From the IMG/VR virus record IMGVR_UViG_3300028800_000083: 64,000 nt of DNA, one strand, 5' to 3'. Made by a program: the position numbers and the translations under genes. The stretch is from a virus. A model generated the notes under the pieces. That model did no database searches, was not told the origin of the DNA, and worked only from the letters and a program-made list of their open reading frames with translations. How positions within the stretch are numbered: the stretch's first letter is position 1; each line of letters starts with the position of its first letter. Shown one piece after another: positions 2,909 to 23,213 of the stretch.

Positions 2909-5821
2909 GTCTCGGTTGTTAACCAACCGAGCGGGTACGATCATAGGGTGTCCCTTAGAGCCTTAGACAGTGCAGTAGCTTCCTGTCTCAGCCGTCAACC
3001 GGCTGAGCAAGTGCGACCAAGGGCCTCGGGCCTCGGGCTTGTGCCCCTCGGGCCTCGGGCCTCGGGGGTCGGGGAGAATGCACGGACTCCCACTCGTCTC
3101 GGGCGTCGACCGACCGAGCAAGTCTTGCGGTTTGCGGTGTGCCGGTGTGCCGGTGTGCCGGTGTGCCGTGTGCCGTTGCTCAAGTCCCGGTCGTCAACCG
3201 GCCGAGTGACCGAGTCTCATGGCACTGCGCTGTAATCCCCTTGCTGTCTCGGTCGTCAACCGACCAAGCAGGTACTCTCGCTACATGCACATGCGCGCAC
3301 TGGCACTCACTGACGTCAACCGTCCGTCTGAGCGTCTGAGCTGCAACAAGCTCAAGGCTGGTCTCGGACGTCAACCGTCCGAGCAGGCGCGATCACTCCG
3401 AAGCTCCGTAGGCATAGCTGTCTCGGACGTCGGACGTCAACCGTTCGAGCAGGTGTCGATCATCCGCACGAGTGTCGAGTGTCGAGTGTCGAGCGCAAAC
3501 TCGGGATTCTCTGTCTCGGACGTCAACCGTCCGAGCAGGTGCGATCACCTACCAGGGTGAGAGATGGAAACAATCTCCGTCTCGGGCGTCAACCGTCCGA
3601 GCAGGTGCGATCACTCTCATAGATCACGTGCTCCAGCCTCCAGCCTCCAGCCTCCAGCCTCCAGCCTCCAGACGTCGGATCAGGCTCGTCTCGGACGTCA
3701 ACCGTCCGAGCAGGTGCGATCACCTGCCCCCCTGCCCCCCGCAGAGGCCGCAGAGGCGCAAGAACTCTCTCGCCAGTCTCGGACGTCAACCGTCCGAGCA
3801 GGTGCGATCACAGGCAGGTTCTCGCCTGGCTCCCGGCTCCCGGCTCCCGGCTCCACCTAACCAAGGTGTCTCGGACGTTAACCGTCCGAGCAGGTGCGAT
3901 CACCCGCTCGCTGAGCGTGAGCGTGAGCGGCCGATCGTAGCGGGTGTCTCGGACGTCAACCGTCCGAGCAGGTGCGATCACACGCGAGCATCGGGTGGCG
4001 CTGGCCCTCTCTAAACAATGCGTCTCGGACGTCAATCGTCCGAGCAGGTGCGATCATCTTCTGGACGCACGACGACAGATTCGGGATTCGGGTTGGCCCA
4101 GTCTCGGACGTTAACCGTCCGAGCCGCATCCCATGCGGCAGCGGCCCGATCCCTTGTCTCGGACGTCAACCGTCCGAGCAGGTGCGATCACCTCGCACGG
4201 GCGCGCGAGCCGTGAGGCCGTGAGCCGTCGATCGAGCTCAAGTCTCGGACGTCAACCGTCCGAGCAGGTGCGATCACTTGTGCGCGCGCATGCCGCGGGC
4301 GGCGGGCGGCGCGTGGTCTCGAACGTCAACCGTCCGAGCAGGTGCGATCACACGACGACGAATCAGCAGGCAAGGATAACTGCTGGTCTCGGACGTCAAC
4401 CGTCCGAGCAGGTGCGATCACAGGGGACGGACATCTTCGTGTTCGATCTTGGCACGCCTCGACCTCGAGCCACCTATAGTCTCGGACGTCAACCGTCCGA
4501 GCAGGTGCGATCACAAGCCACCCGCGACGCCTACGCGATGGAGCGTCGAGTCTCGGACGTCAACCGTCCGAGCGTCCGAGCAGGTGCGATCACACGCGCT
4601 GTACATCGGCCCCGGCGAGAAGTTCCGGTCTCGGACGTCAACCGTCCGAGCAGGTGCGATCACACGCGACCCGTGACCCGTTGCGCGAACGCGCGAACGG
4701 AACGGCCGGCTCCTCGTCTCGGACGTCAACCGTCCGAGCAGGTGCGATCACGCTCGGCGGCCAGCTGATCAGCACGCGCGATCGCTTGTCTCGGACGTCA
4801 ACCGTCCGAGCAGGTGCGATCACAATTGGCGATCAGTTGCGCGCGGCTGCGCGCTCGTCTCGGACGTCAACCATCCGAGCAGGTGCGATCACCCGCAGTT
4901 CGGGCAGGGAGCGTCCTCAAAGATCTGTCTGTCTCGGACGTCAACCGTCCGAGCAGATGCGATCACCTTCGACCGGTAGCGCGAGCGCTCGGGTACTTGT
5001 GGTCTCGGACGTCAACCGTCCGAGCAGGTGCGATCACGCGTCTCGACGGGGTAGCGCACCGAAATGGTCCGGGTCTCGGACGTCAACCGTCCGAGCAGGT
5101 GCGATCACGAGGTCAGCCGGTGTCCCAAATGCGGCGCCTTCGGGTCTCGGACGTCAACCGTCCGAGCAGGTGCGATCACTTGTGACGCATGTGCTCGCGG
5201 CTGGCAGCACTCAGTCTCGGACGTCAACCGTCCGAGCAGGTGCGATCACAGGATCACGCGCGTCGCCTCGTTAATCAGTCCGTCGTCTCGGACGTCAACC
5301 GTCCGAGCAGGTGCGATCATGCGAGAGCCGTGCCCGTCTGAATCACGATCTCCCAGCGTCTCGGACGTCAACCGTCCGAGCAGGTGCGATCACCGGCCGG
5401 GCGAAGCTTACCCGTTCAACTATCGAGTGTGGTCTCGGACGTCAACCGTCCGAGCAGGTGCGATCACAGGTGCCGCCTTTTGCTGCGTGTACAGGCGTTG
5501 GCTGTCTCGGACGTCAACCGTCCGAGCAGGTGCGATCACTCACCCATCGGACTGGCCAGTCCCTGGAGATCGGGTCTCGGACGTCAACCGTCCGAGCAGG
5601 TGCGATCACACGTCGTGACCGATCTAGCGATGACTAATCGGTTCGTCTCGGACGTCAACCGTCCGAGCAGGTGCGATCACCCTCGGCGCTGCGCGTAGCT
5701 GGTCTGCCCGTCTAGTCTCGGACGTCAACCGTCCGAGCAGGTGCGATCACTCGCAGCAGGCGATCCTCAAGCTGGCGCGGCCGATGTCTCGGACGTCAAC
5801 CGTCCGAGCAGGTGCGATCAC
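2909..5821 (-). CRISPR. CRISPR array A, ~40 units, 36-nt repeat GTCTCGGACGTCAACCGTCCGAGCAGGTGCGATCAC (plus-strand reading)
   Basis: Regular ~71-72-nt period with unique 34-36-nt spacers between 3361 and 5821. Repeats are degenerate and spacers irregular in 2909-3350, so that is the old end and the effector-proximal right end is the young end. The repeat contains the inverted repeat CTCGGACG/CGTCCGAG. On the minus strand the hairpin sits at the 3' end of the repeat next to the spacer, which is the type V-like arrangement. Strand is inferred. Confidence 0.9.
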
Positions 5822-5970: not shown

Positions 5971-7908
5971 CTACGCGGCACGCCGCACCTGCGGCACCGG
6001 ACCGCTCGACAAGCCGTGCCTGTGGAGGAGGTTGCGCGCGGCGTTCGCGTCCTGGTCCCAGGTCCGAATGCACGACGAGCAGGTGTGCTCGATCGAGGCT
6101 GCCGCGTCGAACGCCTCGACCGAGCCGCACCACGCGCACGCCTTGGTCGAGTCCGCGGCCTGCTCGGCCTCGACGCGGGCGCCGCGTTTGGGGGCGGCCT
6201 TGAGGATCTCGGCGCGAAGCTCGCCGGGAGCTGCAAGGCGGCTCATGCGGCGCTGCTCGCGCCCGTCGGACGGGTCGCCGTCCTCCGGCGCGGGCTGCTC
6301 CCAGCCGTCGACCTCGGTGAGCTTCATCGAGGTGTCGTGGTTCGACCCGCTCTCGATCAGGATCGTCGCGTAGCGGGCGGTGAGCTCGGCGGCGATCACG
6401 CGCCACACCTCACGGCGGTGGGCGATCAAGCGATCGCGCTGGTGCTCCTCCCAGTTCTGGAGGTGTCGATCTTGGCGCGCCCACGCCTGGAGCACGGCGA
6501 GGATCGGACCGTCGCCGTCGATGCGGTTGGCCGTCGAGCCGAAGTCCGAAGGGTTGCACTTCTTGCCCTCGGCGCGAGCGACGCGCCAGGCGTCCCAGTC
6601 GATCCCAGTCCAAGCGTCGACGAGGGAGGCGAGCTTGCGGGGGGCGCGCCACTGCGCCAGGCTGCCGACGCGCTCGGCCATCCACGCGGGGGTCTCCCGG
6701 TCGAGCAGCCAGGCCGCGAGGCGGTCGCGCGCGGTCTCGAACTCCTTGTCGCGGATCGACGCCAGGTCGTGGACCTTGGCCATTCCCGTCAGCAGATCGT
6801 CGGGCACACGGATCTCGCGCTCGTGCCCGTGCTCGTCGACGAGGTAACCAACGCGCAGACCGACCTGCACGCCCTGGGCGTCGAACAGCCGCCGCCAGCC
6901 CAGGTCGATCGCGCAGGTCCCCTCGCCGATCGCCACCGGGCAGGCACGAAAGCGCTCGCTCTCGAGCGTGAGCTGGAACCTCCACTCGTAGTGACGGCCG
7001 ACGCGCTTGCGCACGACGTACGCCCACTTGATCACCGCGTCCTTCGGGATGGGTCGGTGGAGGGTGAGGGGGAAGCGCGCGAAGATCGGCTTCCGGTCAG
7101 GGTGGCTGCCGACGCGCAGGTCGACGTACGTCCGTGCCGCGTGACGGCGCAGGTTGCGCGGGAGGCACGCGGCCTCCTCCCACGTGGCGCACGCTCCGAC
7201 CTCGGCGCGCGGGTGCTTGTCGGCGAGACCAGGGGTCCCCAGCCGGAGCCGGGAGTCCTGCTGCGACAGCAGCTCGCTGACGGTCATGCCGTAGATTCCC
7301 GGGGCGCCGTCGCGCGCGATGAGCTGCGTGCCGATCGATCCGGTCCCGTCGTAGCGCTCGAAGTGGAGCGGGCGCTTCGCCGTCTTGACGGCCTGCTTGA
7401 CCGAGTTCTCGACGCGGTCGTAGGTGCCGGTGCGCAGTCCTCGCTCGATGAAGGCGCGGCGGGCCTCCTTGCGGCGCAGCGCCGTGAGCGCGCGCGCGGC
7501 CTCGTAGCCCGGCTGGAGCTGCGCCGCGCGAGACGCCTTGGCCTCGCGCAGCTCCGCGCCGCACAGGGCGCGGAGGTCCTTGGCGCGGGCGAGCACCTCG
7601 CGCTCCGCCGTCAGGTCCGGGGCAGCGACGCCGGACTTCGCGGCCCGCAGGTCGTCGTAGGCGTCGTCGACGGCACCCGCCGCGTCCTCGTAGTCGCGGA
7701 GGGCCGCACCGACGATCGGATCCGCGAGCTGGACGCCGCGGAGGTCGTCCCAGAGCTTGTGCTCGATCTCGACGAGCGTGTTGCGGTACTGGTGCGCGAG
7801 GCGGAACTGCTCTTCGACGCGGTTCACCTCGGTGATCGGAGGCAGGCAGCGGTACGAGTAGATCCGGGTCGGGACGTCGGAAGTCTTCTTCCTGGGCTGT
7901 CGCGGCAT
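5971..7908 (-). CDS. TnpB-like RuvC nuclease, putative type V CRISPR effector (Cas12-family, subtype unresolved), copy A
   Basis: ~646 aa from ATG at 7908; the longer in-frame ORF reaches 7980. TnpB-like N-terminus (PTRIYSYRCLPP). RuvC-I is AIDLGW, with the Asp codon GAC at 6904-6906. RuvC-II is ILIESG. Zinc finger CAWCG..(14)..CSSC is followed by RuvC-III DQDANAARNLL. A 40-unit array lies 150 bp downstream on the same strand. Confidence 0.75.
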   Translation of the reverse strand: MPRQPRKKTSDVPTRIYSYRCLPPITEVNRVEEQFRLAHQYRNTLVEIEHKLWDDLRGVQLADPIVGAALRDYEDAAGAVDDAYDDLRAAKSGVAAPDLTAEREVLARAKDLRALCGAELREAKASRAAQLQPGYEAARALTALRRKEARRAFIERGLRTGTYDRVENSVKQAVKTAKRPLHFERYDGTGSIGTQLIARDGAPGIYGMTVSELLSQQDSRLRLGTPGLADKHPRAEVGACATWEEAACLPRNLRRHAARTYVDLRVGSHPDRKPIFARFPLTLHRPIPKDAVIKWAYVVRKRVGRHYEWRFQLTLESERFRACPVAIGEGTCAIDLGWRRLFDAQGVQVGLRVGYLVDEHGHEREIRVPDDLLTGMAKVHDLASIRDKEFETARDRLAAWLLDRETPAWMAERVGSLAQWRAPRKLASLVDAWTGIDWDAWRVARAEGKKCNPSDFGSTANRIDGDGPILAVLQAWARQDRHLQNWEEHQRDRLIAHRREVWRVIAAELTARYATILIESGSNHDTSMKLTEVDGWEQPAPEDGDPSDGREQRRMSRLAAPGELRAEILKAAPKRGARVEAEQAADSTKACAWCGSVEAFDAAASIEHTCSSCIRTWDQDANAARNLLHRHGLSSGPVPQVRRAA

Positions 7909-7920
7909 CCGTGAATGGCT

Positions 7921-7948
7921 AACAGGATGATAGACGTTTTGCAAGGCT
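7921..7948. promoter_or_regulatory. conserved motif copy 1 (GCTAACAGGATGATAGACGTTTTGCAAG), 13-40 bp upstream of effector A ATG
   Basis: A 28-nt identity with the copy at 18211-18238 and 21 nt shared with the copy at 22314-22334. On the minus strand it reads TTGCAA-N17-TAGCCA and ends 13 nt before ATG 7908. Confidence 0.45.
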
Positions 7949-8011: not shown

Positions 8012-11000
8012 GTCGAGACCACTGCGAGGTCTCGCATCGATCGCGTGATCGCCTGTTGGTCGAGGTTTCACATCGATCGTGCCGCCTTGCCGTGCCAGGT
8101 GAGCAAGCGCTTGCACACGTCGAGACCACAGCGAGGTCTCGCATCGATCGCACCAACCTGAAATCGTCGGCGCCTTCATCCGGACGATTCGTCGGTCGGT
8201 TGAGACCACAGCGAGGTCTCGCGTCTCGCATCGATTGTGCCGAGAGTCGGCGCGGAGTTCTACGTTGACTTCTTCGGGTCGAGACCACCGCGAGGTCTCG
8301 CATCGATCAGGCCCGGCAATTTCATTGGCCGGAACTCCCAGTACCGGCTGGTCGAGACCACCGCAAGGTCTCGCATCGATCCCAGCCCAAATGTGAATCC
8401 GTCGAGACCACCGCGAGGTCTTGCATCGATCATCGATTGGGCCTCCCGCCCGCTCGCCAGCTCGCCGGGTTAGCAGTGGTCTCGACGAGCGGATCTACCG
8501 CGAGGTCTCGCATTGATCGTACCCCTTTTCCCTCGCCGTTTTCGCGGTCGTTGAGACCACTGCGCGCTGCGAGGTCTCGCAGCGATCGGGCCGAGCGGCC
8601 GAGCGGCCGAACGGAGCTGCCCCCAGCTCACGCGCTCGTAGGCTGATCGACCGGCTCGTCGAGACCGCCGCGAGGTCTCGCATCGATCGTGGCACTTCTT
8701 CGGGACCATACCCGTCACCTTGAGGAGAACTCGTCGAACCTCGTCGAGACCACCGTGGTCTCGCATCGATCGTGCCAATCGATTCGCGCAACGTCGATCG
8801 TGTCTGATTCGACGAGCTCGGGGCGAAGCGGTCGAGACCACAGCGAGGTCTCGCATCGATCATGCCTGTGGTGACGAAAAGGGCTGACAACGGTGACCTG
8901 TGGGTCGAGACCACAGCGAGGTCTCGCATCGATCGTGCGTCGGTGACTTGCTTCGATCGTGTCTTTGTCGGGGGCTTGCGCGAAACTTGGACCATGGGCA
9001 GTCGAGACCACAGCAAGGTCTCGCATCGATCACACCTGCGAACGGCGAGCTTCACAGTCAAGACGGCGCGCATTGATCTTGGCAGGCTTCAAGTTTCAAG
9101 TCCCTCGTGCGCCTTATCGTCCGTATCGTCGCGTTCTGGTCGAGACCATCGCGAGGTCTCGCATCGATTGCACCAGGGCTGCTCTGTGCCCTGGGGGCAT
9201 GCTCGGTGCTCGGCTGCTCGTCGAGACCCCTGCAAGGTCTCGCACTGACCGGAACTGATTCGCAACCACCTGTCGAGACCACCGCAAGGTCTCGCATCGA
9301 TTGTGCCGTTTGTACGTGAGGTTGATGAGGGGACGTCGAGAGTCGAGACCACCGCTCCTCATGGCAGCGTCGGGGTGGACCAACGACCAACGGTCGAGAC
9401 CACCGTGAGGTCTCGCATTGATCGTGCCCCCTTCTTGGGCCAGCAGGCGTCCTCCGTCAAGTGGTCGAGACCACAGCACAGCGAGGTCTCGCATCGATCG
9501 CGCCTCGATATCGCGCGGGCGCGCGGTGGTGGCTCAATGCTCAATGTTGTCGAGACCGTAGATGACCTGCGGCATTGCGGCACATTGAGCGTGGTCGAGA
9601 CCACAGCGAGGTCTCGCATCGATTGTGTCACTCGGCGATCTCGTTGTCCGTACCCCGTCGCCGCAGTCGAGACCACAGCGAGGTCTCGCATCGATTGTGC
9701 CCGACCTCGTGATTCGTGATTCGACGTGAGGATGGAGATCCCGGTGTCGAGATCTCGCGTCGATTGTGCCGTGGACGCCAAGTGGAGCGAGAGCCTTGGT
9801 AAAGCTGTCGAGACCACCGCGAGGTCTCGCATCGATCGTGCCAAGTAGGCTGCACATGAGTCGATGGCCGTTCGGCGTGTCGAGACCACCGCGAGGTCTC
9901 GCATCGATCGAGCTTGCGCACAGGTTTTCGAGACCACCGCGAGGTCTCGCATCGATCGTGCCGTGAAGACGTAGTCCCCGCGCGGCGGACTCGCATTGTC
10001 GAGACCACCGCGAGGTCTCGCATCGATTGTGCCCGTCAGCCTAAGCACCCTGTCGCGCTGGGAGTCGAGACCACCGCGAGGTCTCGCATCGATTGTGCCG
10101 CCTAGGCGCAGGCGTCTCACCTACGCAATCGCTAAGTAGAGACCACCGAGGTCTCGCATCGATCGTGCCGGGGGGCCGGGGATCGTCGACCGTCGGCCCA
10201 ACTGCGGACAGTCTAGGCGAGACCACAGCGAGGTCTCGCATCGATCGTGCCCAGCGCTTGCTCGCTTCCTCTTCGCGCGCCGATGACGACGTGTTGCGGC
10301 GGTAACAGGTAACAGGTGCGCACCGGGTGTTTGGGTCGAGACCACAGCGAGGTCTCACATCGATTGTGCCCCGGCTAAGCTGAAGAACCGTGACCCCAAA
10401 CTACGGCGAGTCGAGACCACAGCGAGGTCTCGCATTGATTGTGCCCCGTGACCAGGCTCGAGTACGTCAGCTTCAGCACCGTAGGGTCGAGACCACAGCA
10501 AGGTCTCGCATCGATTGTGCCAGCCTCAGGCTCCGCGTCCTGCTATTCCCGTTCGTCCAAGTCGAGACCAGCGCGGTCTCGCATCGATTGTGCCACGTGC
10601 CACGCGAGCCGCATCCCAGCCGTCAGGGTGTCGAGACCACCGCGAGGTCTCGCATCGATTGATTGTGACGCCGTGCAGCGCGCCAAGAATCGGGGCGATG
10701 CCAGTGTCGAGACCACCGAGGTCTCGCATCGATTGTGCCGTACCGCCGCGAGCGCGCCTTGACCGACGTAGAGCGTGTCGAGACCACCGCGAGGTCTCGC
10801 GTCTCGCATCGATTGTGCCGCGACACTCGCCGAAGTCGACCTCCGATCCCGACCCTGTCGAGACCACCGCGAGGTCTCGCATCGATTGTGCCTCCGCACC
10901 GTGCGCTGCGCGCTTCGGTGTCGTCTGGTCGAGACCACCGCGAGGTCTCGCATCGATTGTGCCTGCCGGCCTGCCGGCCTGCCGGCATCGCGCCGACGTC

Positions 11001-14000
11001 GTGGACGTGGGCACACCCGTCGTCGAGACCCCCGCGAGCACAGCACCGATCGTCAACTGGTCGAGACCACCGCGAGGTCTCGCATTGATTGTGACCGCTC
11101 GGGTCACCCACCATCTGCCGTGACACGATCTTGTCGAGACCACCGCGAGGTCTCGCATCGATTGTGCCGACGGACGCGGACGTCGTCGAGAAATGTCGGC
11201 CCTTGTCGAGACCACCGCGAGGTCTCGCATCGATCATCGATCGTGCCTTGCCACGACTACGCATGTGGCTCGGCGGGTCTGCGCGTGGGGCCACACCTCG
11301 GACTGGTCGAGACCACCGCGAGGTCTCGCATCGATCATGCCGTTACCTGCTAAGACGGTAAGCAGGGAGGTCGTCGAGACCACTGCGAGGTCTCGCAGCG
11401 ATCGTGCCCGTGAGGTCTCGCCCCTGCGACGTTGGGATCGGTCGTTGGTCGAGACTACCGCAAGGTCTCGCATCGATCGTGCCGCAACAGAATTCGTGAC
11501 GGCGCCGATACTCGGAGCGGTCGAGACCACCGCGAGGTCTCGCAGCGATCGTGCCCAGGCATCTATCAAGGCTACGCTTGCACGGGCGCTCGTCGAGACC
11601 ACCGCAAGGTCTCGCATCGATCGTGCCCTTTGCTGTCATGTGTCCTCTTCTTCCTTCTTCCTTGCAGGTTGTCGAGACCATCGCGAGGTCTCGCATCGAT
11701 CGTGCCGCGCGGTCGCGCCGTCGCGCGGGACGCGATGCTGTAGTCGAGACCACCGCGAGGTCTCGCATCGATCGTGCCGCTCGCGTAGCGAGGTGCCAAC
11801 GGCGTTCTTACGAGGTCGAGACCACCGCGAGGTCTCGCATCGATCGTGCCGCCCAGGAGCGTCAGAGTGTCGACCATTTCGCCGTGTCGAGACCACCGCG
11901 AGGTCTCGCATCGATCGTGCCGTTCAACCCGCACTCGGGCAAGCACAAGACGCTCGGTCGAGACCACCGCCGTGACGGATGAGCCTGTTGCTGTTGGGCA
12001 GGCCTACGTCGTATTGGTCGAGACCACCGCGAGGTCTCGCATCGATCGTGCCCTGGCTGTCCTTAAGACGAGGCCCCTATGGACCGAGAGTCGAGACCAC
12101 CGCGAGGTCTCGACCACATGGCTCCGGCTCTGGTCGAGACCACCGCGAGGTCTCGCATCGATCGTGCCGTCTCCACGTTCACGCCGCCCTCCCACGCGAG
12201 CCAGTCGAGACCACCGCGCGGTCTCGCATCGATCGTGCCGTGCCACGTGCCACGTGCCACAGCAGCAGCGAGCCCAGACTAGACAGTTCGTCGAGACCAC
12301 CGGGAGGTCTCGCATCGATCGTGCCAGTCGGTCGCTTGACCATGGCTAACCTCAAAAATGTGTCGAGACCACCGCGAGGTCTCGCATCGGTCGTGCCCTC
12401 GATACGGACCCGAGAAACGGAAACTGGTTTTTCAGTCGAGACCACCGCGAGGTCTCTCATCGATCGTGCCGGCCAAGTCTTCCTCGGTCGTCGAGCGCCC
12501 GCCGGCCTTGTCGAGACCGCCGCGAGGTCTCGCATCGATCGTCGATCGTGCCCTCTTGTAGACCCAGCCGTGTAGCCGATAGAGCTGCTTGTCGAGACCA
12601 CCGCGAGGTCTCGCATCGATCGTGCCGTCTCGTCGCTCGCCATGCTCGCCGGCACACCGAACCCGTCGAGACCACCGCGAGGTCTCGCATCGATCGTGCT
12701 CCCAGGCGAGCGAGTCGAGGTAGTCGCGGACCGGGTGGGTCGAGACCACCGCGAGGTCTCGCATCGATCGTGCCGCACGCGGGCGCGCGCTCGGTGTCGT
12801 TGACCGTTGACCGAGGAGGTCGAGACCACCGCGAGGTCTCGCATCGATCGTGCCGCCGTGCAATTGCGGACGGCCGATCTACTTCCGGTGGTCGAGACCA
12901 CCGCGAGGTCTCGCAATCGATCGTGCCGGTCGAGAGTGCGTGACCGAAAACACGGAACCGGAGGCTGGTCGAGACCACCACGAGGTCTCGCATCGATCGT
13001 GCCGTACAGGTTCGCCGTGGTGCCCTTGGGCGCACCGTAGTCGAGACTACCACGTCATAGCGGCCGTCGAGACCACCGCGAGGTCTCGCATTGATCGTGC
13101 CGCGACCTCGTCGAGGTGCCGCTCGTCGTTCATTCTTGTCGAGACCACCGCGAGGTCTCGCATCGATCGTGCCTTGCCTAGCCGCCGAGGCGTTCGGCGA
13201 CAAGACAGCGGGTCGAGACCACCGCGAGGTCTCGCATCGATCGTGCCGCGGCCGGGCAGGAGGGCAGGAAGTTGAACGTCGAGTCAACTTTGTCGAGACC
13301 ACCGCGAGGTCTCGCATCGATCGTGCCGAACGCCGAACACTGCTGAGCGGCAGGCGATACTCCTAGGGCAGTCGAGACCACCGCGAGGTCTCGCATCGTC
13401 GCATCGCTCGTGCCTGCAACGCGCGGTTCGCTCAGCGGGGGTTGGAGGTGGTCGAGACCACTGCGAGGTCTCGCATCGATCGTGCCCGCGACTCGTTCGT
13501 CGTTCGCCGCGTCGGCCGTAGTGCGCCGGGTCGAGACCACTGCGAGGTCTCGCATCGATCGTGCCACGCGCGCCAAGTCGGTCCAACTAAGAGCCCCAAT
13601 CGTTGTCGAGACCACCGCGAGGTCTCGCATCGATCGTGCCCAGCCGACCGAATTCGCCACTGCATTTACGACGCTGTGTCGAGACCACCGAGAGGTCTCG
13701 CATCGATCGTGCCGAACGCGGGCGCGTCGGGCTCGAGTTCGTTCCATTGGTCGAGACCACCGCGAGGTCTCGCATCGATCGTGCCGCGCGCATCGTGCGG
13801 CAAGCGTGCGGCAAGCGTGCGGCATGAGCTTGTCGAGACCGCCGCGAGGTCTCGCATCGATCGTGCCTTATCGTCGGACTTGCCGATCCCGAGCTGCCCT
13901 TTTGTCGAGATCACTAGGTCTCACATCGATCGTGCCGGTTATGGCGCCCTCGTTGTCGCAGTGCCCGTTCTCGTCGAGACCACCGCGAGGTCTCGCATCG

Positions 14001-15906
14001 ATCGTGCCGATCGTCGACGTGGAACGTGGAGGCGCGTTGGCGCAACCGGAAGTCGAGACCACCGCGAGGTCTCGCATCGATTGTGCCCGTCGCGCGCTCG
14101 CCCGATATCGATGAGCCCAACGTGTCGAGACCACCGCGAGGTCTCGCATCGATCGTGCCGGGAAGTAGGCTGCACATGAGTCGATGGCCGTTCTGCGTGT
14201 CGAGACCACCGCGAGGTCTCGCATCGATCGTGCCGTCTAACGTGGCTGCTCACCGGAGCCGTGGTTCGCTGTCGAGACCACAGCGAGGTCTCGCATCGAT
14301 CGTGCCTCGGGAATTCCAAGACCTCCGTCAGCGGTTCCTCTCGTCGAGACCACAGCGAGGTCTCGCATCGATCGTGCCGGTGTCAAACGTGCGATGGAAC
14401 AGGCGGAGGTTTAGGTCGAGACCACCGCGAGGTCTCGCATCGATCGTGCCTGAACACGTTCTTGCCGTTGGCGCCTTCGCCATAATGGTCGAGACCACCG
14501 CGAGGTCTCGCATCGATCGTGCCGTTGTGCAGACACTTTGCCGTAACGACGCCGGTGTCGTCGAGACCACCGCGAGGTCTCGCATCGATCGTGCCGAACG
14601 ACTCGAAGGTCGCGACATCGACGCATCTGTCGTCGAGACCACCGCGAGGTCTCGCATCGATCGTGCCCGCGTGCGAAGCAGAGATGCCCTCGAGCAGTCG
14701 CTCGTCGAGACCACCGCGAGGTCTCGCATCGATCGTGCCGCTGCGCGACCGCGACGAAGCTCGTCGTCCTCATAGATGCTCACGTCACGTCGAGACCACC
14801 GCGAGGTCTCGCATCGATCGTGCCACAGGAGTAGACACGGATCCACGGAGGAACCAATGGGTCGAGACCACAGCGAGGTCTCGCATCGACGACGTGATCG
14901 CCCGTTGGTCGAGACCACCGCGAGGTCTCGCATCGATCGTGCCAGGTCGGGCTGGACCTTGGCAGTCGAGACCGCTGCGAGGTCTCGCATCGATCGTGCC
15001 GAAAGCGGCCGGGTCGGGCGCGGGCGCGATCTGCGCGTCGAGACCCCCGTGAGGTCTCGCGTCTCGCATCGATCGTGCTGTTCAGGATCTCAGCCGCAGC
15101 GAGCGAGGTGTCTATGTCGAGATGTCGAGACCACCGCGAGGTCTCGCATCGATCGTGCCCAGCAACGAACCCGGGCTAGAGAGTTCGAACCCATGTCGAG
15201 AGTCGAGACCACCGCGAGGTCTCGCATCGATCGTGCCGATCGCCGCCGCGATTGAAGCAGCGCTCGTCTCTGGCGTCGAGACCACCGCGAGGTCTCGCAT
15301 CGATCGTGCCTGATCTGAGCGGCCTTGTCGATCGGCTCAAGGTCGAGACCACCGCGAGGTCTCGCATCGATCGTGCCGGCTCGGACGCATGACCAAGAGC
15401 GTTACGTTCGATGTGTCGAGACCACCGCGAGGTGCCATGACCTCACCATAGCGCGCCCGCGATCGTGCCGACGAACCCGAATTCCTCCGCCGAGGACAAT
15501 CCGTAGGTGTCGAGACCACCGCGAGGTCTCGCATCGATCGTGCCGGGGCTTGGGCTCGATCCGCGCTACACGATCTCGTCGTCGAGACCACCGCGAGGTC
15601 TCGCATCGATTGTGCCCGCCTGACGGTACGCCGCCGGGGCGGAGGGCTGCGTGTCGAGACCACCGCGAGGTCTCGCATCGATTGTGCCCTCGACCGTCTC
15701 GTGCCAGCCCTTCGGGATTCGCACGTCGAGACCACCGCGAGGTCTCGCATCGATTGTGCCCACTCTCGTGGTCTCGTGGCAATACCCACTCGACGTGCGT
15801 CGAGACCACCGCGAGGTCTCGCATCGATTGTGCCGCGCCGCTTGTCCGGTGGCGACCAGGACTTCAGGATGTCGAGACCACCGCGAGGTCTCGCATCGAT
15901 TGTGCC
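8012..15906 (-). CRISPR. CRISPR array B, ~108 units, 36-nt repeat GTCGAGACCACCGCGAGGTCTCGCATCGATCGTGCC (plus-strand reading)
   Basis: 72-74-nt period with unique 36-39-nt spacers. Repeats are degenerate in 8012-9100 (old end) and near-perfect toward 15906, which is the end next to effector B. Palindrome GAGACC/GGTCTC. Sub-variants ...GATCGTGCC and ...GATTGTGCC occur in blocks. A few truncated repeats are present, for example at 12090. Strand is inferred as for array A. Confidence 0.9.
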
Positions 15907-15927
15907 TTCGATTGTCAGAGAACGAAC

Positions 15928-16199: not shown

Positions 16200-16211
16200 G
16201 AACGAACGATC

Positions 16212-18167
16212 CTACGGCGTTGCGGGGCTCGGCGCGAGCGGCTGCTGGTCCTTCCGCCGGTTCCGCCGCGCCGGGGCCTTCTTCTTCGTCGAAGGTGCCG
16301 GAACCTTGGGGTCGAGCGGCCACCCGCTCTCGCCGCGCGCGACGGCGCTCGCGGCGGCGAGCAGGTTTCGGCTCATCGTGATGTCCTGGTCCTCGGCGTG
16401 GCCGCAGTTCTCGCAGCGGATCACCCGCTGCACCCGGTCTTCCCGCGAGACGTCGCGGTGGTGACCGCAGGCCGCGCAGTCGAGCGTCCCACCGGCAGCG
16501 TCGACCTCCAGGTCGACGCTGCCGTACTTCTTCGCGAAGTAGCCGACGCGGGCGCGGGCGCGCCCGGGCCCCAGGATGTTCACGCGGCGCGCCGTCTTCT
16601 TGCGCAGCTTCTGCTCGTCCTCGTCGTGCTGGTCGTCCTTCTCGACGAGGCCGGTCACGTCGAAGTCGTCGCGGGCGACGACCCCGTAGCGCTTGGCCAG
16701 CTGGACCGCGACCGCGGTGACGCGGCCCTCGACCTGGCGCTGCATGCGCTCGAGGCTCGGCACCTCGCGGTGGAGCAGGTGGACGTCCTGCTTGCTCCAC
16801 GCCTCCAGCGCCGCGAAGGCCGGCTGGTCGCCGTGGATGCGCTGGTCTCGCCACTGCCGGTGCAGGCGGACGTACTTGCTGGGGGCCCGCCAGTTGTGCA
16901 TGTGGCGGCTCTCTTCGCGGAGCCACGACGTCGCCGGCAGCGACCGGGCGTAGGCGAGGATCATGTCGCGGAGCACGTCCTGGTTCTGGTCGCGGATCGA
17001 ATGGATCGAGTCGGCCCAGGGTTTCACACCGAGCACGTCCTCGGGGATCACGAGTTGCCCCCAGAGCGGGCTCGCGGGGTCGTTGGGGTCGAGTGGCGCG
17101 GTGGCGCTCCACGTGAGCAGGCGGATGCCCGCCTTCTTGCCCTCCTCGTCGAAGAGCTGACGCCAGCCGATGTGGACGGCGACCGCGTCGTGCGGGTGCG
17201 GGTGCGGGGTGGTCACGGCCACGGAGCCCTCGACCTCAAGCGTGAGGTACCAGCGGTAGCGGAGCCCGGTGCGCTCGCGCCGGACCACGGCCCACTTGAC
17301 GACGTCGTGCCCGAGCTGGAGGCGGTTCTTCGTGCGCGGGGACTGGTGCAGGAGCAGGTGCATCTGGGCCCAAATCGGGCGGATGGTGCCCGGCACAGTC
17401 CCGACGCGGATCGCGAGCGCGTGGAAGCGCTTGCCCTTCGTGGCGGCCTCTCCCGCGCGCGGCCCGATCTTGATGACGTCTCCCGGGTTCCCGGCGACGT
17501 CGATCGCGCGCCCCTCGGCGTCGACCGCGGCGGGTCGGAAGTGGTCGACCGGGGCACCCAGCGAGTACGCGACCGATCCGATGCGCAGCCAAGACCCTTC
17601 GCCGCCGATGAGATCGTCGGCGTAGACGGACTTCTTGGCGGGAAGTGTCTTGCCGGTCCGCGCGTCGATGCGCGCGTTCTGCCGCTGGAACTGGACGGCG
17701 ATGCGGCCCACGTCCGGGGGGAAGTCCGTCCCCACGAACGTGGTCCGGCCGTTTTCGTCGATGAGCCCTGCCTTGTCGATCGTGCGCCGCGCGAAGTCGG
17801 CCGCGTCGTCCGCCTTGCCGAGCGTCCCCCACATGGCTCCCGCCTCGATCGTCGCGTCGCGCACGGCCTTGAGCGCGCGCTTCTTCCCCGCGAACACGCG
17901 CTCGCGGAGGGCCTTGAACTCGTCAGAGGCGTGCCACGCATCGCGGGCAGCTTTCCCAGCCTCCGACTTCCACCACGCGCCACGCGCTTCGACGGGTACG
18001 TCCCTGGCCGGGTAGTCGATGAGCGCGCGCCGGAGGAAGCGCTCGCGGTTCTCGATGAGCGCGATCTGTCGGCGGTAGCGCGCGCCGAGGCGCACCTGCT
18101 CGCGCAAGCAATGGTCGTCGGCGGCCGTCGCCGGGAGACAGAGGAACTTGTACACGCGCATCGTCAT
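16212..18167 (-). CDS. TnpB-like RuvC-fold protein, putative type V CRISPR effector paralog B with divergent catalytic residues
   Basis: 651 aa; about 30-35% identical to copy A over its full length (RVYKFLCLPA N-terminus, WRAPSK, AWSKQD, KRYG blocks). RuvC-I reads AVHIGW, with His codon CAC at 17172-17174 where copy A has Asp. RuvC-II reads VVARDD. Zinc finger CAACG..CENCG is followed by EDQDITMSRNLL. A 108-unit array lies downstream on the same strand. Confidence 0.75.
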   Translation of the reverse strand: MTMRVYKFLCLPATAADDHCLREQVRLGARYRRQIALIENRERFLRRALIDYPARDVPVEARGAWWKSEAGKAARDAWHASDEFKALRERVFAGKKRALKAVRDATIEAGAMWGTLGKADDAADFARRTIDKAGLIDENGRTTFVGTDFPPDVGRIAVQFQRQNARIDARTGKTLPAKKSVYADDLIGGEGSWLRIGSVAYSLGAPVDHFRPAAVDAEGRAIDVAGNPGDVIKIGPRAGEAATKGKRFHALAIRVGTVPGTIRPIWAQMHLLLHQSPRTKNRLQLGHDVVKWAVVRRERTGLRYRWYLTLEVEGSVAVTTPHPHPHDAVAVHIGWRQLFDEEGKKAGIRLLTWSATAPLDPNDPASPLWGQLVIPEDVLGVKPWADSIHSIRDQNQDVLRDMILAYARSLPATSWLREESRHMHNWRAPSKYVRLHRQWRDQRIHGDQPAFAALEAWSKQDVHLLHREVPSLERMQRQVEGRVTAVAVQLAKRYGVVARDDFDVTGLVEKDDQHDEDEQKLRKKTARRVNILGPGRARARVGYFAKKYGSVDLEVDAAGGTLDCAACGHHRDVSREDRVQRVIRCENCGHAEDQDITMSRNLLAAASAVARGESGWPLDPKVPAPSTKKKAPARRNRRKDQQPLAPSPATP

Positions 18168-18195
18168 TGTTGGGCGCCCCGCTGTCGCACGTGCT

Positions 18196-18238
18196 GTTGT
18201 TGCATTGACGAACAGCTAACAGGATGATAGACGTTTTG
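18196..18238. promoter_or_regulatory. conserved motif copy 2 (TTGCATTGACGAACAGCTAACAGGATGATAGACGTTTTGCAAG) between divergent effector B and RHH-like gene
   Basis: Nearly identical to the copy at 22302-22339. Quasi-palindromic ends (TTGCA..ACG / CGT..TGCAA). Possible -35/-10 readings in both directions: TTGACG-N17-TAGACG on plus and TTGCAA-N17-TAGCTG on minus. Confidence 0.5.
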
Positions 18239-18421
18239 CAAGACGCAATGTTCGAGCCGAAGCAACAAGCCGCGGAGAAACTCAGCCACTACATCGGTGC
18301 GCGCGTCACCGACACCGAAGAGTCGTGGCTCCGCGCCGAGATGAAGCGCAGAAAGATCACGATGAGTGACTTGATGCGCCTCGCGCTCGGCAAGCTCTTC
18401 GTTTCCAAGAAGACGGGGTGA
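18224..18421 (+). CDS. small ribbon-helix-helix-like protein (possible transcriptional regulator)
   Basis: 65 aa. The C-terminal half, MSDLMRLALGKLF, resembles the CopG/RHH fold. Transcribed divergently from effector B; its start lies within the conserved motif. Confidence 0.4.
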   Translation: MIDVLQDAMFEPKQQAAEKLSHYIGARVTDTEESWLRAEMKRRKITMSDLMRLALGKLFVSKKTG

Positions 18422-18786
18422 CCTTGGCGATCGAGTGCAAGGAGATGCACGAGTGGGCGTCGTGGCGTGACGAGTACACCCTCGCCGACGTCGAGAAGGC
18501 GCTCGCGTTCGCCGGCCTCAAGGGGTGGAAGTTCGACCACTGGTCCGACGGGGACGCGCAGTTCATGCACCCCGGGCCGGTGACGTTCGACGACCTCGCC
18601 AAGCTGCGGGTCACGTTCACGCCCCGGAGCATGGTCGTCGAGGCGGTCGTCGACCAGGACGCGGAGGACGAGCGGTTGGTCGCGTGGGAGCGCGCGGGGG
18701 CTAACCCGCTCGACCGTGGCGCCACGGCCTTGATGGTGCTGGTGACGATGAGCTGGAACGAAGTCTCCGACGCGGGGGCCGCCTGA
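18418..18786 (+). CDS. hypothetical protein
   Basis: GTGA overlap with the upstream gene; 122 aa. Confidence 0.5.
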   Translation: MTLAIECKEMHEWASWRDEYTLADVEKALAFAGLKGWKFDHWSDGDAQFMHPGPVTFDDLAKLRVTFTPRSMVVEAVVDQDAEDERLVAWERAGANPLDRGATALMVLVTMSWNEVSDAGAA

Positions 18787-19388
18787 TGGCCGACGCGTGC
18801 GATCACAAGCGTCGGATCGGGAACCACCGAAGCTCGGCCCTCACGGTCTGCCACGTGTGCCGCGACTTCCTGTGCTCGACCTGCGGCGCCACGATCGACT
18901 GGTACGAGGGGCTCTGCTGCGCCAACCCCGGCGCGCAGTGGCGCTACTGCACGAAGCCCGCGTGCGTTGAGGTGGAGGCCGCGTACCACGGGTTGGACCT
19001 CGACGAGATGGTCCGCTGTCGGGAGGCGCTGCGGGAGAAGCGCGTGCTCAGGCACCTCCAGGATCGAGGGGGCCACGCGGCGTTTGACGCTTTTGGTCCG
19101 CGCAGTCGTGTGGTCGAGGGGTCGTCTTCCGCGACGTCCGTGACGGGCCAGGGCACCGCGACGAGTCGTCCGCCGAACCAACGCTTCATCGAGCCCGTCG
19201 CCTTCGTGCTCGACCCCGGCGAGGCGTGCTGGTGCAACCTCGGTAAGGATTGCGACGGCAGTCACCAGGTCTGGATCGAGGAGCCCACGAACATCTGCGG
19301 TTTCTGCGGCGAGGAGTTCCAGATCTCCGCGACGGACCCCCACTTCTTGAGTGGCCGCGGACCCCGCTGCCCGACGAGGGCGGCATGA
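18786..19388 (+). CDS. hypothetical Cys-rich protein
   Basis: 200 aa; multiple CxxC pairs (CHVCRDFLCSTCG, CGFCGEEF); start overlaps the upstream stop. Confidence 0.5.
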   Translation: MADACDHKRRIGNHRSSALTVCHVCRDFLCSTCGATIDWYEGLCCANPGAQWRYCTKPACVEVEAAYHGLDLDEMVRCREALREKRVLRHLQDRGGHAAFDAFGPRSRVVEGSSSATSVTGQGTATSRPPNQRFIEPVAFVLDPGEACWCNLGKDCDGSHQVWIEEPTNICGFCGEEFQISATDPHFLSGRGPRCPTRAA

Positions 19389-21182: not shown

Positions 21183-21187
21183 CGTTG

Positions 21188-22276: not shown

Positions 22277-22301
22277 GGACGTTCCTGTTGACGTCTCCAC
22301 G

Positions 22302-22339
22302 GCTGCATTGACGAACAGCTAACAGGATGATAGACGTTT
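22302..22339. promoter_or_regulatory. conserved motif copy 3 (TGCATTGACGAACAGCTAACAGGATGATAGACGTTTGG), upstream of gene 22386
   Basis: A 36-nt identity with copy 2. Lies in the 110-bp intergenic region about 47 bp upstream of the AAGGACGA-ATG start at 22386. Confidence 0.5.
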
Positions 22340-22385: not shown

Positions 22386-23213
22386 ATGGCGAAGCAACAA
22401 TCCGACTCCACCGAAGTGCACATCGTCAACGTCGAGCGCGGCAGGGTCACCTTCCACCTCATCGGCACCGCGCCCCTACTGCACAACTGCCTTAACAACA
22501 AGGCCCGGCAAGAGTTGCTCCTGCCGTCGGGTCGCAAGACCGAGGCCGAGCGCAAGACGACGCTGAAGCACCAGCCCCTCGAGGAGTTTCGCTCCTCGAT
22601 CTACTTCAATCATCGGCCCGAGGGTCCGACGCTCGTGCAGCACCTGTCGAGCGCGTTCCGCGGAGCGATGCGCTCAGCCGCGCTCGACTTGCCCGGCGTC
22701 ACGAAGGCCGAGATCGGGCGCCTGCTCTGGGTGGATGGAGACCGCGTCGACATCTACGGCCACCCACAGATCGACATGCGGATTGTCCGCCAGGCCGGCA
22801 TGAACCGCACGCCCGACGTGCGCACGCGCTGCATCATGCCCGAGTGGGCGTGCGCGATCACGGTGTCGTTCACCAAGCCCCAGCTCAAAGAGCAAGCCGT
22901 GGCGAACTTGATCACGGCTGCCGGCCTCTACATCGGAATCGGCGACTATCGGAACGAGAAGGGGGCCGGCAACTACGGGTTGTTCCGCGTCTGCGCGGAC
23001 AAGGATCCGGACTACGTGCGGATCCGGAAGGCCGGTCGTAAGGTGCAGGAGGCCGCGATGAAGACGCCCGAACCATTCAACGAGGAAACGGCCGAGCTCC
23101 TGACGTGGTTTGAGGGTGCGGTGGCGGAACACCGATCCTTCGCGCCGCTCACGTCGGCGTCGGCGTCGGCGAAGGGCAAGAGGCGCGGCAAATCGAGCGA
23201 GGCGCCGTCGTGA
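22386..23213 (+). CDS. hypothetical protein
   Basis: AAGGA RBS then ATG at 22386 (the ORF-track start at 22338 is less likely). 275 aa, coding-like. Confidence 0.6.
   Translation: MAKQQSDSTEVHIVNVERGRVTFHLIGTAPLLHNCLNNKARQELLLPSGRKTEAERKTTLKHQPLEEFRSSIYFNHRPEGPTLVQHLSSAFRGAMRSAALDLPGVTKAEIGRLLWVDGDRVDIYGHPQIDMRIVRQAGMNRTPDVRTRCIMPEWACAITVSFTKPQLKEQAVANLITAAGLYIGIGDYRNEKGAGNYGLFRVCADKDPDYVRIRKAGRKVQEAAMKTPEPFNEETAELLTWFEGAVAEHRSFAPLTSASASAKGKRRGKSSEAPS

What the first reader, a model, noticed from the sequence alone, without database searches (positions are those of the whole stretch)
18196..18238. Conserved ~40-nt quasi-palindromic motif upstream of both effector genes and a third gene
TTGCATTGACGAACAGCTAACAGGATGATAGACGTTTTGCAAG occurs at 18196-18238, between effector B and a divergent RHH-like ORF. 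A near-identical 36-nt copy lies at 22302-22339, upstream of gene 22386. A 28-nt copy lies at 7921-7948, ending 13 bp before the effector A ATG. The ends are inverted (TTGCA-N3-ACG ... CGT-N3-TGCAA). Plausible -35/-10 pairs can be read in both directions: TTGACG-N17-TAGACG on the plus strand and TTGCAA-N17-TAGCCA or TAGCTG on the minus strand. For effector A this would give a nearly leaderless mRNA. The motif marks module boundaries and is a strong candidate for a shared promoter or operator, possibly bound by the adjacent RHH protein. That would couple expression of both effectors and a phage gene.
Basis: seen in the sequence. Interest (0 to 1): 0.6.

Follow-up and report, generated by a model that had tools for sequence, protein, structure and literature searches.

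The report
Shared promoter-operator of phage Cas12m genes
A short DNA motif present three times in this giant-phage fragment is most likely the core of a compact two-way promoter with a repressor-binding site, copied so that two CRISPR-Cas12m effector genes and a third operon share one control element; it is a well-supported but fairly ordinary kind of regulatory element.

Summary
The motif is real. A 22-nt core, GCTAACAGGATGATAGACGTTT, occurs exactly three times on the + strand, against 0 expected by chance. The true copies are 18200-18242 (43 nt), 22304-22339 (36 nt) and 7918-7945 (28 nt).

The two "effectors" are Cas12m-like proteins. Each is followed by its own large CRISPR array, in a fragment of a huge phage.

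Ten distinct related contigs carry the same element in front of a conserved 57-aa gene whose predicted fold is ribbon-helix-helix (RHH). The conserved features are:
- TTGAC(R) as a -35;
- a 17-nt spacer holding a conserved GCTAAC box;
- an invariant extended -10-like TGATAGAC(R);
- the start codon 10-15 nt further on.

In two relatives a Cas12m gene starts back-to-back with the RHH gene, only 40-41 nt away.

My reading is a compact divergent promoter plus a probable RHH operator. It is ancestral to the RHH operon and was triplicated in this genome at rearrangement junctions. The arms retained at each copy match the direction of the gene it faces.

No transcription or binding data exist, and the -10 hexamers are non-canonical.

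This is a new member of a known kind, of moderate interest.

The parts
18200..18242 (.). Motif copy 1 (full 43 nt), lying between effector B and the RHH gene. It holds both promoter readings and the candidate operator.
18205..18233 (+). Putative RHH-operon promoter: -35 TTGACG (18205-18210), 17-nt spacer, extended -10-like TGA-TAGACG (18225-18233). The RHH ATG follows 14 nt later.
   Evidence: Conserved in 10 related contigs. Mean pairwise identity of the 20-nt core is 74%, against 28% for the far-upstream sequence and 62% for third codon positions.
18216..18230 (.). Candidate RHH operator: half-sites CTAACA (18216-18221) and TGATAG (18225-18230), an imperfect inverted repeat about one helical turn apart.
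   Evidence: The arms are conserved and the centre is variable in relatives. L053 has perfect arms, CTAAC/GTTAG. In L051, L047 and L049 the GCTAAC box is flipped or moved but still 11-12 nt from GATAG. Binding is inferred, not shown.
18213..18241 (-). Putative effector-direction promoter of copy 1: TTGCAA-N17-TAGCTG. It is followed by a relic ATG (18205->18203) and then a leader of about 40 nt to effector B.
   Evidence: The same geometry is seen in L048 and L051.
18248..18421 (+). RHH-fold gene (57 aa). It is the first gene of a + strand operon running to about 22276.
16212..18161 (-). Effector B, Cas12m-like. The conserved start MRVYKF is at 18161; the longer ORF begins at 18167.
8012..15906 (-). 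CRISPR array B, about 100 copies of a 36-nt repeat, cognate to effector B. Its degenerate distal end runs up to motif copy 3.
   Evidence: A cognate array lies beside the effector B homolog in L001.
7918..7945 (.). Motif copy 3 (exact 28 nt; weaker homology extends back to 7896). It keeps the minus-strand -35 and -10 but has lost the + strand -35.
7916..7944 (-). Putative effector A promoter: TTGCAA-N17-TAGCCA, then 7 nt, then ATG 7908. This is a leaderless-type arrangement.
   Evidence: The same spacing to a conserved MPR... start is seen in L048 and L051.
5971..7908 (-). Effector A, Cas12m-like (645 aa).
   Evidence: PDB Cas12m chain 23vw_A, E = 8e-65. Pfam Cas12f1-like TNB domain. 109 homologs, many on contigs of 200-460 kb.
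2909..5821 (-). CRISPR array A, about 36 copies of a 36-nt repeat, cognate to effector A.
22304..22339 (.). Motif copy 2 (exact 36 nt). It keeps the complete + strand promoter (22308-22336) but lacks the TTGCAA arm.
22288..22305 (+). Relic of the effector-B-type promoter found in relatives (TTGAC..GTCTCCACGGCTG), fused to copy 2. This marks a rearrangement junction.
22386..23213 (+). Third gene served by the motif. Its function is unknown (phrog_4652). It has an AAAGGA Shine-Dalgarno-like box, and its ATG lies 49 nt after the -10 of copy 2. It heads a + strand block that leads to a sigma-70 family gene at 24006-25718.

Best explanation
The motif is the core of a very compact back-to-back promoter region with a built-in operator.

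On the + strand, TTGACG-N17-(TGA)TAGACG drives the RHH-led operon (copy 1) and the operon beginning at 22386 (copy 2). For the RHH gene the start codon lies only 14 nt after the hexamer, so that mRNA is nearly leaderless.

On the minus strand, a second promoter overlaps the same DNA. It is either TTGCAA-N17-TAGC(TG/CA) or the overlapping TATCAT box. It drives the Cas12m-like effector genes and, behind them, their CRISPR arrays. For effector A the ATG lies 7 nt after the hexamer.

The conserved GCTAAC and GATAG boxes lie between and over the -10 elements, one helical turn apart. They are the likely binding site of the 57-aa RHH protein, which would repress its own operon and the effector promoter together.

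The element is ancestral to this phage clade as the RHH-operon promoter, often abutting a Cas12m gene. In this genome it was duplicated twice during rearrangements, and each copy kept the half that its neighbouring gene needs.

Shown: the repetition, the conservation, the geometry and the predicted RHH fold. Inferred: transcription starts, RHH binding and co-regulation.
For: - **Repetition.** Three exact copies against 0 expected.
- **Conservation.** Ten distinct RHH-gene upstream regions share TTGAC(R), (A)GCTAACA(G) and an invariant TGaTAGAC(R). The ATG follows 10-15 nt after the hexamer, and there is no conservation upstream of the -35.
- **Selection on the core.** The 20-nt core is 74% identical on average. 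Far-upstream DNA is 28% identical and RHH third codon positions are 62% identical.
- **Back-to-back genes in relatives.** In L048 (effector A homolog, 70% identity) and L051/L040 (62%), the effector ATG directly abuts TTGAC ('CATTGAC'). The two start codons are 40-41 nt apart, and the effector ATG is 7 nt after a TA-initial hexamer.
- **Relic start codon.** Copy 1 keeps a relic ATG at the homologous position, and copy 3 keeps the exact spacing.
- **Retained arms fit gene direction.** Copy 2 has a + strand gene and keeps the + strand -35 and -10 only. Copy 3 has a minus-strand gene and keeps TTGCAA and TAGC only, with the + strand -35 mutated at 6 of 9 positions. Copy 1 has divergent genes and keeps both arms.
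- **RHH fold.**
- **RHH-Cas12m association.** RHH-like small ORFs accompany Cas12m genes of both types across relatives.
- **Matching invariance.** The predicted RHH beta-strand segment YIGARV is invariant in the 51-sequence alignment, matching the invariant DNA boxes.
Against: - There are no transcription-start or binding data.
- The -10 hexamers (TAGACG, TAGCTG, TAGCCA) lack the T at the last position. A standard sigma-70 scan finds no promoter anywhere in 15800-26000.
- The effector-direction hexamer differs among genomes (TAGCTG, TAGCCA, TAACAG). An alternative -10 (TATCAT) is equally possible.
- Several relatives have the RHH promoter with no effector next to it (L045, L047, L052, L055). 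The element is therefore not CRISPR-specific.
- Triplication is seen only in this phage. The perfect identity of the copies could simply reflect recent duplication.
- The 14-nt inversion in the 332-kb relative rests on one assembly.
Confidence: 0.62

Rival explanations
1. Only copy 1 is a working regulatory region, the native RHH promoter. Copies 2 and 3 are passive scars of the rearrangements that brought effector B and array B between effector A and the RHH operon, and they do not drive or regulate anything.
For: The copies sit at junctions. Copy 2 is fused to a relic of another promoter, and copy 1 carries a relic start codon of an effector-A-type gene. Relatives have a single copy per locus. 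Perfect identity fits recent duplication.
Against: The flanks are at background identity (24-30%), while 28 and 36 nt are perfect. The retained arm at each copy is the one needed for the adjacent gene. Copy 3 keeps the exact 7-nt spacing to the effector A ATG, as in L048 and L051. Effector A has no other upstream candidate, apart from read-through from the 8-kb array B.
Confidence: 0.2
2. The element is a promoter class read by the phage's own sigma-70 family protein (24006-25718). The conserved boxes are sigma recognition elements, not a repressor site, and the RHH protein plays no part.
For: TGaTAGAC(R) is invariant but non-canonical, lacking a T at -7. The window and the 332-kb relative both encode a sigma-70 family protein close to these loci.
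Against: The GCTAAC box can be flipped or moved to the other side of the -10 (L051, L047, L049). This is unusual for a sigma element but typical of an operator sub-site. RHH genes travel with Cas12m genes in several arrangements. The two ideas are not mutually exclusive.
Confidence: 0.13
3. The three direct copies are attachment or crossover sites of a site-specific recombination system that inserts gene cassettes. Copy 1 shares one arm with each neighbour, which resembles an attL / attP-like / attR pattern.
For: All copies are in the same orientation. Arm sharing follows the pattern X-core-R, L-core-R, L-core-Y. The copies bound a 10.3-kb block and a 4.1-kb block.
Against: No recombinase was found among the genes between or beside the copies. 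In ten related contigs the element is single-copy and sits at a fixed distance from a start codon, as a promoter would. The shared arms are only 7 and 14 nt long and coincide with -35 boxes.
Confidence: 0.03
4. The motif is an RNA-level or CRISPR-level element: a self-target of one of the phage's own crRNAs (Cas12m autoregulation), an anti-repeat, or a structured leader.
For: Cas12m-type effectors are reported to bind DNA without cutting it (abstracts of PMC11013384 and PMC10442227), so self-targeting would be tolerated.
Against: No spacer or repeat of either array shares even 11 nt with the motif. The only 12-nt match lies outside the motif and at the PAM-distal end of a spacer. Folding is no better than shuffled sequence, with z from -0.97 to +0.39. 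There are no Rfam matches in the window.
Confidence: 0.02

Closest known systems
Phage P22 immI region (Arc and Mnt ribbon-helix-helix repressors acting on the closely spaced divergent promoters Pant and Pmnt); from my own knowledge
   Same: A small phage RHH repressor gene sits at a compact divergent promoter pair, with the operator placed over the core promoter elements. One protein can thus shut both directions and autoregulate.
Omega repressor of plasmid pSM19035 and its heptad operators (PDB 2bnw appears; the operator logic is from my own knowledge)
   Same: An RHH protein recognises short sub-sites that work in direct or inverted orientation. This would explain why the GCTAAC box can be flipped (L051) or moved (L047, L049) yet stay about one helical turn from GATAG.
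   Different: The sub-site sequence and spacing differ (about 10-12 nt here, 7-nt heptads for omega). Only two sub-sites are evident. This is a mechanistic analogy, not a shown relationship.
Aca (anti-CRISPR-associated) repressors and their operators at acr promoters; from my own knowledge
   Same: A small DNA-binding protein encoded next to a CRISPR-related cargo gene in a phage, with its site overlapping the promoter so that a strong early promoter is damped.
   Different: The Aca proteins I recall are helix-turn-helix and control inhibitors of CRISPR. Here an RHH-fold protein would control the CRISPR effector itself.
Type V-M CRISPR-Cas12m systems (context of the motif)
   Same: Effector A matches a solved Cas12m chain at E = 8e-65 and Cas12m2 at about 1e-25. 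Effector B matches Cas12m at 1e-25. Both are compact, lie next to a CRISPR array whose repeat has a 3' stem-loop, and no cas1 or cas2 was seen nearby.
   Different: These genes are in a huge phage, two divergent paralogs (27% identity) in tandem, with arrays of about 36 and about 100 repeats. A phage-borne Cas12m has been reported once, with 8 spacers (bioRxiv 10.64898/2026.09.14.751636). No promoter or regulator has been described for such systems in the papers I searched.

Membership tests
Sigma-70-type promoter (RHH direction, + strand) | -35 box close to TTGACA, 16-18 nt upstream of the -10 box | tested here: met
   TTGACG with a 17-nt spacer in copies 1 and 2. TTGAC(R) is conserved in relatives.
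Sigma-70-type promoter (RHH direction, + strand) | -10 box close to TATAAT, with A at position 2 and T at position 6 | tested here: not met
   The box is TAGACG or TAGACA: T1 and A2 are present, but position 6 is G or A. The standard scan finds 0 promoters in 15800-26000. A TG dinucleotide one base upstream (TGATAGAC), as in extended -10 promoters, is invariant.
Sigma-70-type promoter (RHH direction, + strand) | Fixed position upstream of a gene start, conserved among relatives while the flanks drift | tested here: met
   The ATG lies 10-15 nt after the hexamer in 10 contigs. Core identity is 74%, against 28% far upstream.
Sigma-70-type promoter (either direction) | Transcripts start 5-9 nt downstream of the -10 box | not testable with these tools
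   No transcript data are available.
Effector-direction promoter (minus strand) | Promoter elements conserved in front of orthologous effector genes | tested here: inconclusive
   TTGCAA or TTGCAG, a 17-18 nt spacer, a TA-initial hexamer and 7 nt to the ATG are kept in the window, L048 and L051. The hexamer varies (TAGCTG, TAGCCA, TAACAG), and only two relatives are informative.
RHH repressor with operator | The adjacent gene encodes a ribbon-helix-helix fold | tested here: met
RHH repressor with operator | Repeated sub-sites about one helical turn apart, overlapping the core promoter | tested here: inconclusive
   CTAAC and GATAG lie 10 nt apart as an imperfect inverted repeat. The arms are conserved and the centre is variable. 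L053 shows perfect arms. In L051, L047 and L049 the sub-sites are in direct orientation at 11-12 nt. This is suggestive, but read by eye from 10 sequences.
RHH repressor with operator | The protein binds the site and represses transcription | not testable with these tools
   Needs EMSA or footprinting and reporter assays.
Site-specific recombination (att) site | A cognate recombinase is encoded nearby, and the element is found at insertion junctions rather than at a fixed regulatory position | tested here: not met
   No recombinase domain was found in the neighbouring genes. Relatives carry one copy at a fixed distance from a start codon.
crRNA self-target or CRISPR-derived regulatory RNA site | Complementarity between the site and a spacer or repeat-like RNA | tested here: not met
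   No shared 11-mer between the motif and either array.
Type V-M (Cas12m) CRISPR-Cas, for the flanking genes | Effector related to characterised Cas12m proteins and adjacent to a CRISPR array | tested here: met
   DNA binding without cleavage was not tested.

The most novel reading that the evidence does not exclude
A back-to-back, leaderless promoter of about 40 bp, governed by a dedicated RHH repressor, is the conserved on/off switch of phage-borne Cas12m systems in a clade of huge phages. In this phage the switch was copied so that two different CRISPR-Cas12m systems (about 135 spacers in all) and an operon leading to the phage's own sigma factor form one co-timed regulon. This would be a first example of a virus-encoded regulator dedicated to timing its own CRISPR weaponry.
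Probability: 0.3. Interest if true: 0.6.

Novelty: new member of a known kind. Interest (0 to 1): 0.45.

Why it matters
As far as I could find, nothing is known about how viruses control the CRISPR systems they carry.

If this reading is right, it gives a concrete and very small (43 bp plus a 57-aa protein) testable control module for phage-borne Cas12m effectors. It also explains how two unrelated-looking CRISPR loci can be expressed together, and shows promoter copy-and-paste at rearrangement junctions in a huge phage.

Practically, it tells experimenters where to look for transcription starts. It also suggests that expressing these compact effectors may need removal of, or co-expression with, the RHH protein.

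Tried and rejected
- **Self-targeting crRNA idea.** I compared all of arrays A and B with the three motif regions. No 11-mer was shared with the motif. Rejected.
- **RNA structure or known RNA family.** Folds are no better than shuffles, and there is no Rfam hit in the 64 kb. Rejected.
- **Exact-match scans for the 22-mer.** Scans of the viral, metagenome and genome collections found nothing. This is not informative for the metagenome scan, because JGI contigs of the same phage that do carry the motif were missed.
- **18-mer CTTGCAAAACGTCTATCA in viral contigs.** It gave 4 hits that look like chance; three are AT-rich or mid-GC contigs with unrelated context.
- **Relatives of effector B.** These (L001, L004, L010, L011) do not have the motif. 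They have a different promoter, TTGACA-N17-TACAC(G/A) with a GTGTACAC palindrome, plus a co-directional RHH-like ORF.
- **Distant effector relatives.** These come from the viral collection (26-50% identity). Apart from L022 they were too far away to inform on the promoter.
- **Shine-Dalgarno survey of window genes.** I intended to contrast leaderless genes with the rest, but my start-codon calls were too crude to use.
- **GenBank phages.** No relative of the RHH protein was found. Effector A matches only one virus record, at 29% identity.
- **Reconstructing the order of rearrangements.** The data (relic ATG, relic promoter, B-type repeats beyond array A) do not fix a unique history.

Full report
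**1. The observation**

The quoted sequence is present, and the repetition is not chance. The 22-nt core GCTAACAGGATGATAGACGTTT occurs exactly three times, always on the + strand, at 7918, 18215 and 22318. None was found in 100 shuffles. No degenerate copies occur elsewhere in the window.

- copy 1 is 18200-18242 (43 nt);
- copy 2 is an exact 36-nt copy at 22304-22339;
- copy 3 is an exact 28-nt copy at 7918-7945.

Copy 1 shares its left arm, TGCATTGACGAACA, with copy 2 only. It shares its right arm, TTGCAAG, with copy 3 only. Flanks beyond the copies are at background identity, 12-15 matches in 50.

Homology between copies 1 and 3 actually continues leftwards. The stretch 18193-18205 matches 7896-7908 at 10 of 13 positions. 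This places a relic ATG in copy 1 (18205->18203, minus strand) at exactly the position of the effector A start codon in copy 3. Between that stretch and the core lies a 9-nt patch matching at only 3 of 9 positions.

The 'inverted ends' are imperfect (N3 against N2), occur only in copy 1, and are not conserved in relatives.

**2. The context**

The window is 67% G+C. Two long stretches without credible ORFs are CRISPR arrays:
- Array A, 2909-5821, has about 36 copies of GTCTCGGACGTCAACCGTCCGAGCAGGTGCGATCAC.
- Array B, 8012-15906, has about 100 copies of GTCGAGACCACCGCGAGGTCTCGCATCGATCGTGCC.

Read on the minus strand, both repeats end in a stem-loop. The well-kept repeats lie next to the effector genes. 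The arrays are therefore most likely transcribed on the minus strand, in the same direction as the effectors.

The 'effectors' (5971-7908 and 16212-18161/18167, minus strand) are 27% identical to each other. Both carry the Cas12f1-like TNB domain. Both match solved Cas12m chains: E = 8e-65 for A and 1e-25 for B.

Identical or related proteins sit on contigs of 200-460 kb. The window also encodes a sigma-70 family protein. The source is therefore most likely a huge phage.

On the minus strand the order is: copy 1, effector B, array B, copy 3, effector A, array A.

**3. Relatives**

Contigs L013-L021 are the same phage in other samples (99.9-100% identity). They carry the motif unchanged.

Relatives of effector B (70-83% identity) do not have the motif. 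They have TTGACA-N17-TACAC(G/A) with a GTGTACAC palindrome, then a small co-directional RHH-like ORF, then the effector.

The decisive locus came from a 332,853-bp contig that carries homologs of both effectors. Upstream of its effector A homolog (62% identity) lies a divergent 54-aa homolog of the window's small ORF. The two start codons are separated by 41 nt:

CAT-TGGTC-TTGCAA-AACGTCTATCAAACAGC-TAACAG-GATGTCA-ATG

The 18 nt CTTGCAAAACGTCTATCA are identical to window copies 1 and 3. The next 14 nt are the reverse complement of the window's arrangement.

Searching with the small protein gave nine more loci. One was a duplicate and one was the 332-kb contig again (L051). A further relative lies in a 302-kb contig. 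That makes ten distinct upstream regions in all.

**4. The footprint**

I anchored the ten regions on the invariant TGaTAGAC. They share:
- TTGAC(R) about 14 nt upstream of the TG, which gives a 17-nt spacer to the hexamer TAGAC(R);
- (A)GCTAACA(G) inside the spacer;
- the small gene's ATG 10-15 nt after the hexamer;
- nothing upstream of the -35.

Mean pairwise identity is 74% for the 20-nt core. It is 28% for the 36 nt upstream of the -35, 62% for third codon positions of the small gene, and 86% for first and second positions. The core is thus under stronger constraint than synonymous sites.

This is what a promoter with an embedded protein-binding site looks like. The start of the small gene is the conserved MFEPK (ATG 18248). 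The in-frame ATG at 18224 is not conserved as an ORF start (L048).

**5. The small protein**

It has 116 homologous clusters at 59-82% identity, several on contigs above 200 kb. Sequence matches to RHH families are all below threshold (NikA-like in 9 of 9 members, E about 0.001).

The predicted strand segment YIGARV is invariant in that alignment. This matches the invariance of the DNA boxes.

**6. The candidate operator**

CTAACA (18216-18221) and TGATAG (18225-18230) form an imperfect inverted repeat with a variable centre. In L053 the arms are perfect (CTAAC...GTTAG). In the 332-kb relative, and in L047 and L049, the GCTAAC box is flipped or lies on the other side of GATAG, but it is still 11-12 nt away.

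A box that can flip or move yet stays one helical turn from its partner fits two RHH dimers on one face of the DNA. That is the logic known for Arc and omega (from my own knowledge). It fits a sigma recognition element less well. Binding is inferred, not shown.

**7. The effector direction**

In L048 (effector A homolog, 70%) and L051 (62%), the effector ATG abuts the -35 of the RHH promoter ('CATTGAC'), and the two start codons are 40-41 nt apart. The effector promoter must therefore overlap the motif or lie inside the RHH coding sequence.

In the window, L048 and L051 the same geometry holds: TTGCAA or TTGCAG, 17-18 nt, a TA-initial hexamer (TAGCCA, TAGCTG or TAACAG), 7 nt, then ATG. This implies a leaderless or nearly leaderless mRNA. 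An alternative -10 is TATCAT, the reverse complement of the conserved TGATAG box, which would give a leader of about 15 nt.

I cannot choose between these. Either way the two promoters overlap, so RNA polymerase or a repressor at one would affect the other.

Effector B lies about 40 nt downstream of the relic ATG. Its conserved start is MRVYKF at 18161.

**8. Why three copies**

At each copy the retained arms are those the neighbouring gene needs.
- Copy 2 faces a + strand gene (ATG 22386, with an AAAGGA box at -13). It keeps the complete + strand promoter and has lost TTGCAA.
- Copy 3 faces effector A. It keeps TTGCAA, the spacer, TAGC and the 7-nt spacing. The + strand -35 is mutated at 6 of 9 positions.
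- Copy 1 has genes on both sides and keeps everything.

The copies also sit at rearrangement junctions. Copy 1 carries the relic start ATG-CAA-CAA-CAG-C, which resembles effector A's ATG-CCG-CGA-CAG-C. Copy 2 is fused to TTGAC..GTCTCCACGGCTG, the 5' half of the effector-B-type promoter seen in L001 and L011.

In the 332-kb relative the two CRISPR loci are about 31 kb apart and each has its own promoter type. In this phage they are adjacent and share one.

The simplest account is that rearrangements duplicated the RHH-type promoter, and selection kept the useful half of each copy. With only two derived copies, this remains an argument, not a proof.

**9. Rivals**

- Passive duplication scars (0.2). 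This fits the junction positions and the perfect identity. It fits the orientation-matched retention and the exact spacing at copy 3 less well.
- A promoter class read by the phage sigma factor, without RHH involvement (0.13). This would explain the odd -10, and it is compatible with the main model.
- A recombination site (0.03). No recombinase was found among the neighbouring genes, and relatives have a single copy at a fixed regulatory position.
- A crRNA target or RNA element (0.02). There is no complementarity, no fold signal and no Rfam hit.

**10. Comparison with known systems and novelty**

In working principle, the closest systems are:
- the P22 immI region, with RHH repressors at compact divergent promoters;
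- orientation-tolerant RHH operators such as those of omega;
- Aca-controlled acr promoters.

The flanking genes belong with type V-M Cas12m. A phage-borne Cas12m has been reported once, with no mention of regulation. My literature searches found no described regulator or promoter for such systems.

As a promoter-operator the element is a new member of a known kind. Its link to virus-encoded CRISPR effectors and its extreme compactness give it moderate interest (0.45).

The main weaknesses are the absence of any transcript or binding data and the non-canonical -10 boxes.

Noticed in passing
window 2909-5821 and 8012-15906: There are two very large phage-borne CRISPR arrays (about 36 and about 100 repeats), each beside a Cas12m-like gene. 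Spacer lengths are regular (34-38 nt) near the effectors but become very irregular (7-171 nt) in the distal halves, where the repeats also degenerate.
   Followed up: partly
window 2180-2887: Eight degenerate B-type repeats lie beyond the distal end of array A. The block 'copy 3 - effector A - array A' therefore appears to be inserted into, or placed next to, an older part of array B.
   Followed up: no
window 22288-22305: TTGACGTCTCCACGGCTG is homologous to the 5' half of the promoter that precedes effector B homologs in related phages (L001, L011). Here it is fused to motif copy 2 and points towards gene 22386.
   Followed up: partly
L040 9960-10000 (= L051 2960-3000), contig Ga0214473_10000008: The central 14 nt of the motif (AACAGCTAACAGGA) are inverted relative to the window, while both flanks are kept. 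This is seen in a single assembly only.
   Followed up: partly
L001 9780-10000, L004, L010 and L011 upstream of the effector B homologs; L022 upstream of an effector A homolog: A small co-directional RHH-like ORF lies between a TTGACA-N17-TACAC(G/A) promoter (with a GTGTACAC palindrome) and the Cas12m-like gene. RHH genes thus accompany both effector types in this clade. The window's effector B has lost this ORF.
   Followed up: partly
window 24006-25718: A 570-aa sigma-70 family protein (regions 2, 3 and 4) scores below every curated NCBIfam cut-off. The best names are MzaA and RpoD. A homolog lies near the effector B locus of the 332-kb relative.
   Followed up: no
L021 (Logan SRR8544146): This is the same phage in another sample, with array A shortened. 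Window position 5786 is joined to 3396, which looks like a repeat-to-repeat deletion.
   Followed up: no
window 18161-18167: Homologs of effector B all begin MRVYKF. The likely start is therefore ATG 18161, two codons inside the longest ORF.
   Followed up: yes
L055 (302,537-bp contig) 3216-5869: In this relative the RHH operon diverges from phage-borne infC-rpmI-rplT (IF3, L35, L20). An IS110-family transposase lies next to them.
   Followed up: no
collection scans: The metagenome-contig scan returned no hit for the 22-mer. JGI contigs of the same phage (L015, L017-L019), fetched by protein look-up, contain it. A 'no match' from that scan is therefore not evidence of absence.
   Followed up: yes
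window 7949-7960 and 11493-11504: A 12-nt identity (TTCGTGACGGCG) links the DNA just right of motif copy 3 with a spacer of array B. It lies at the PAM-distal end of the spacer and is at about chance level.
   Followed up: yes
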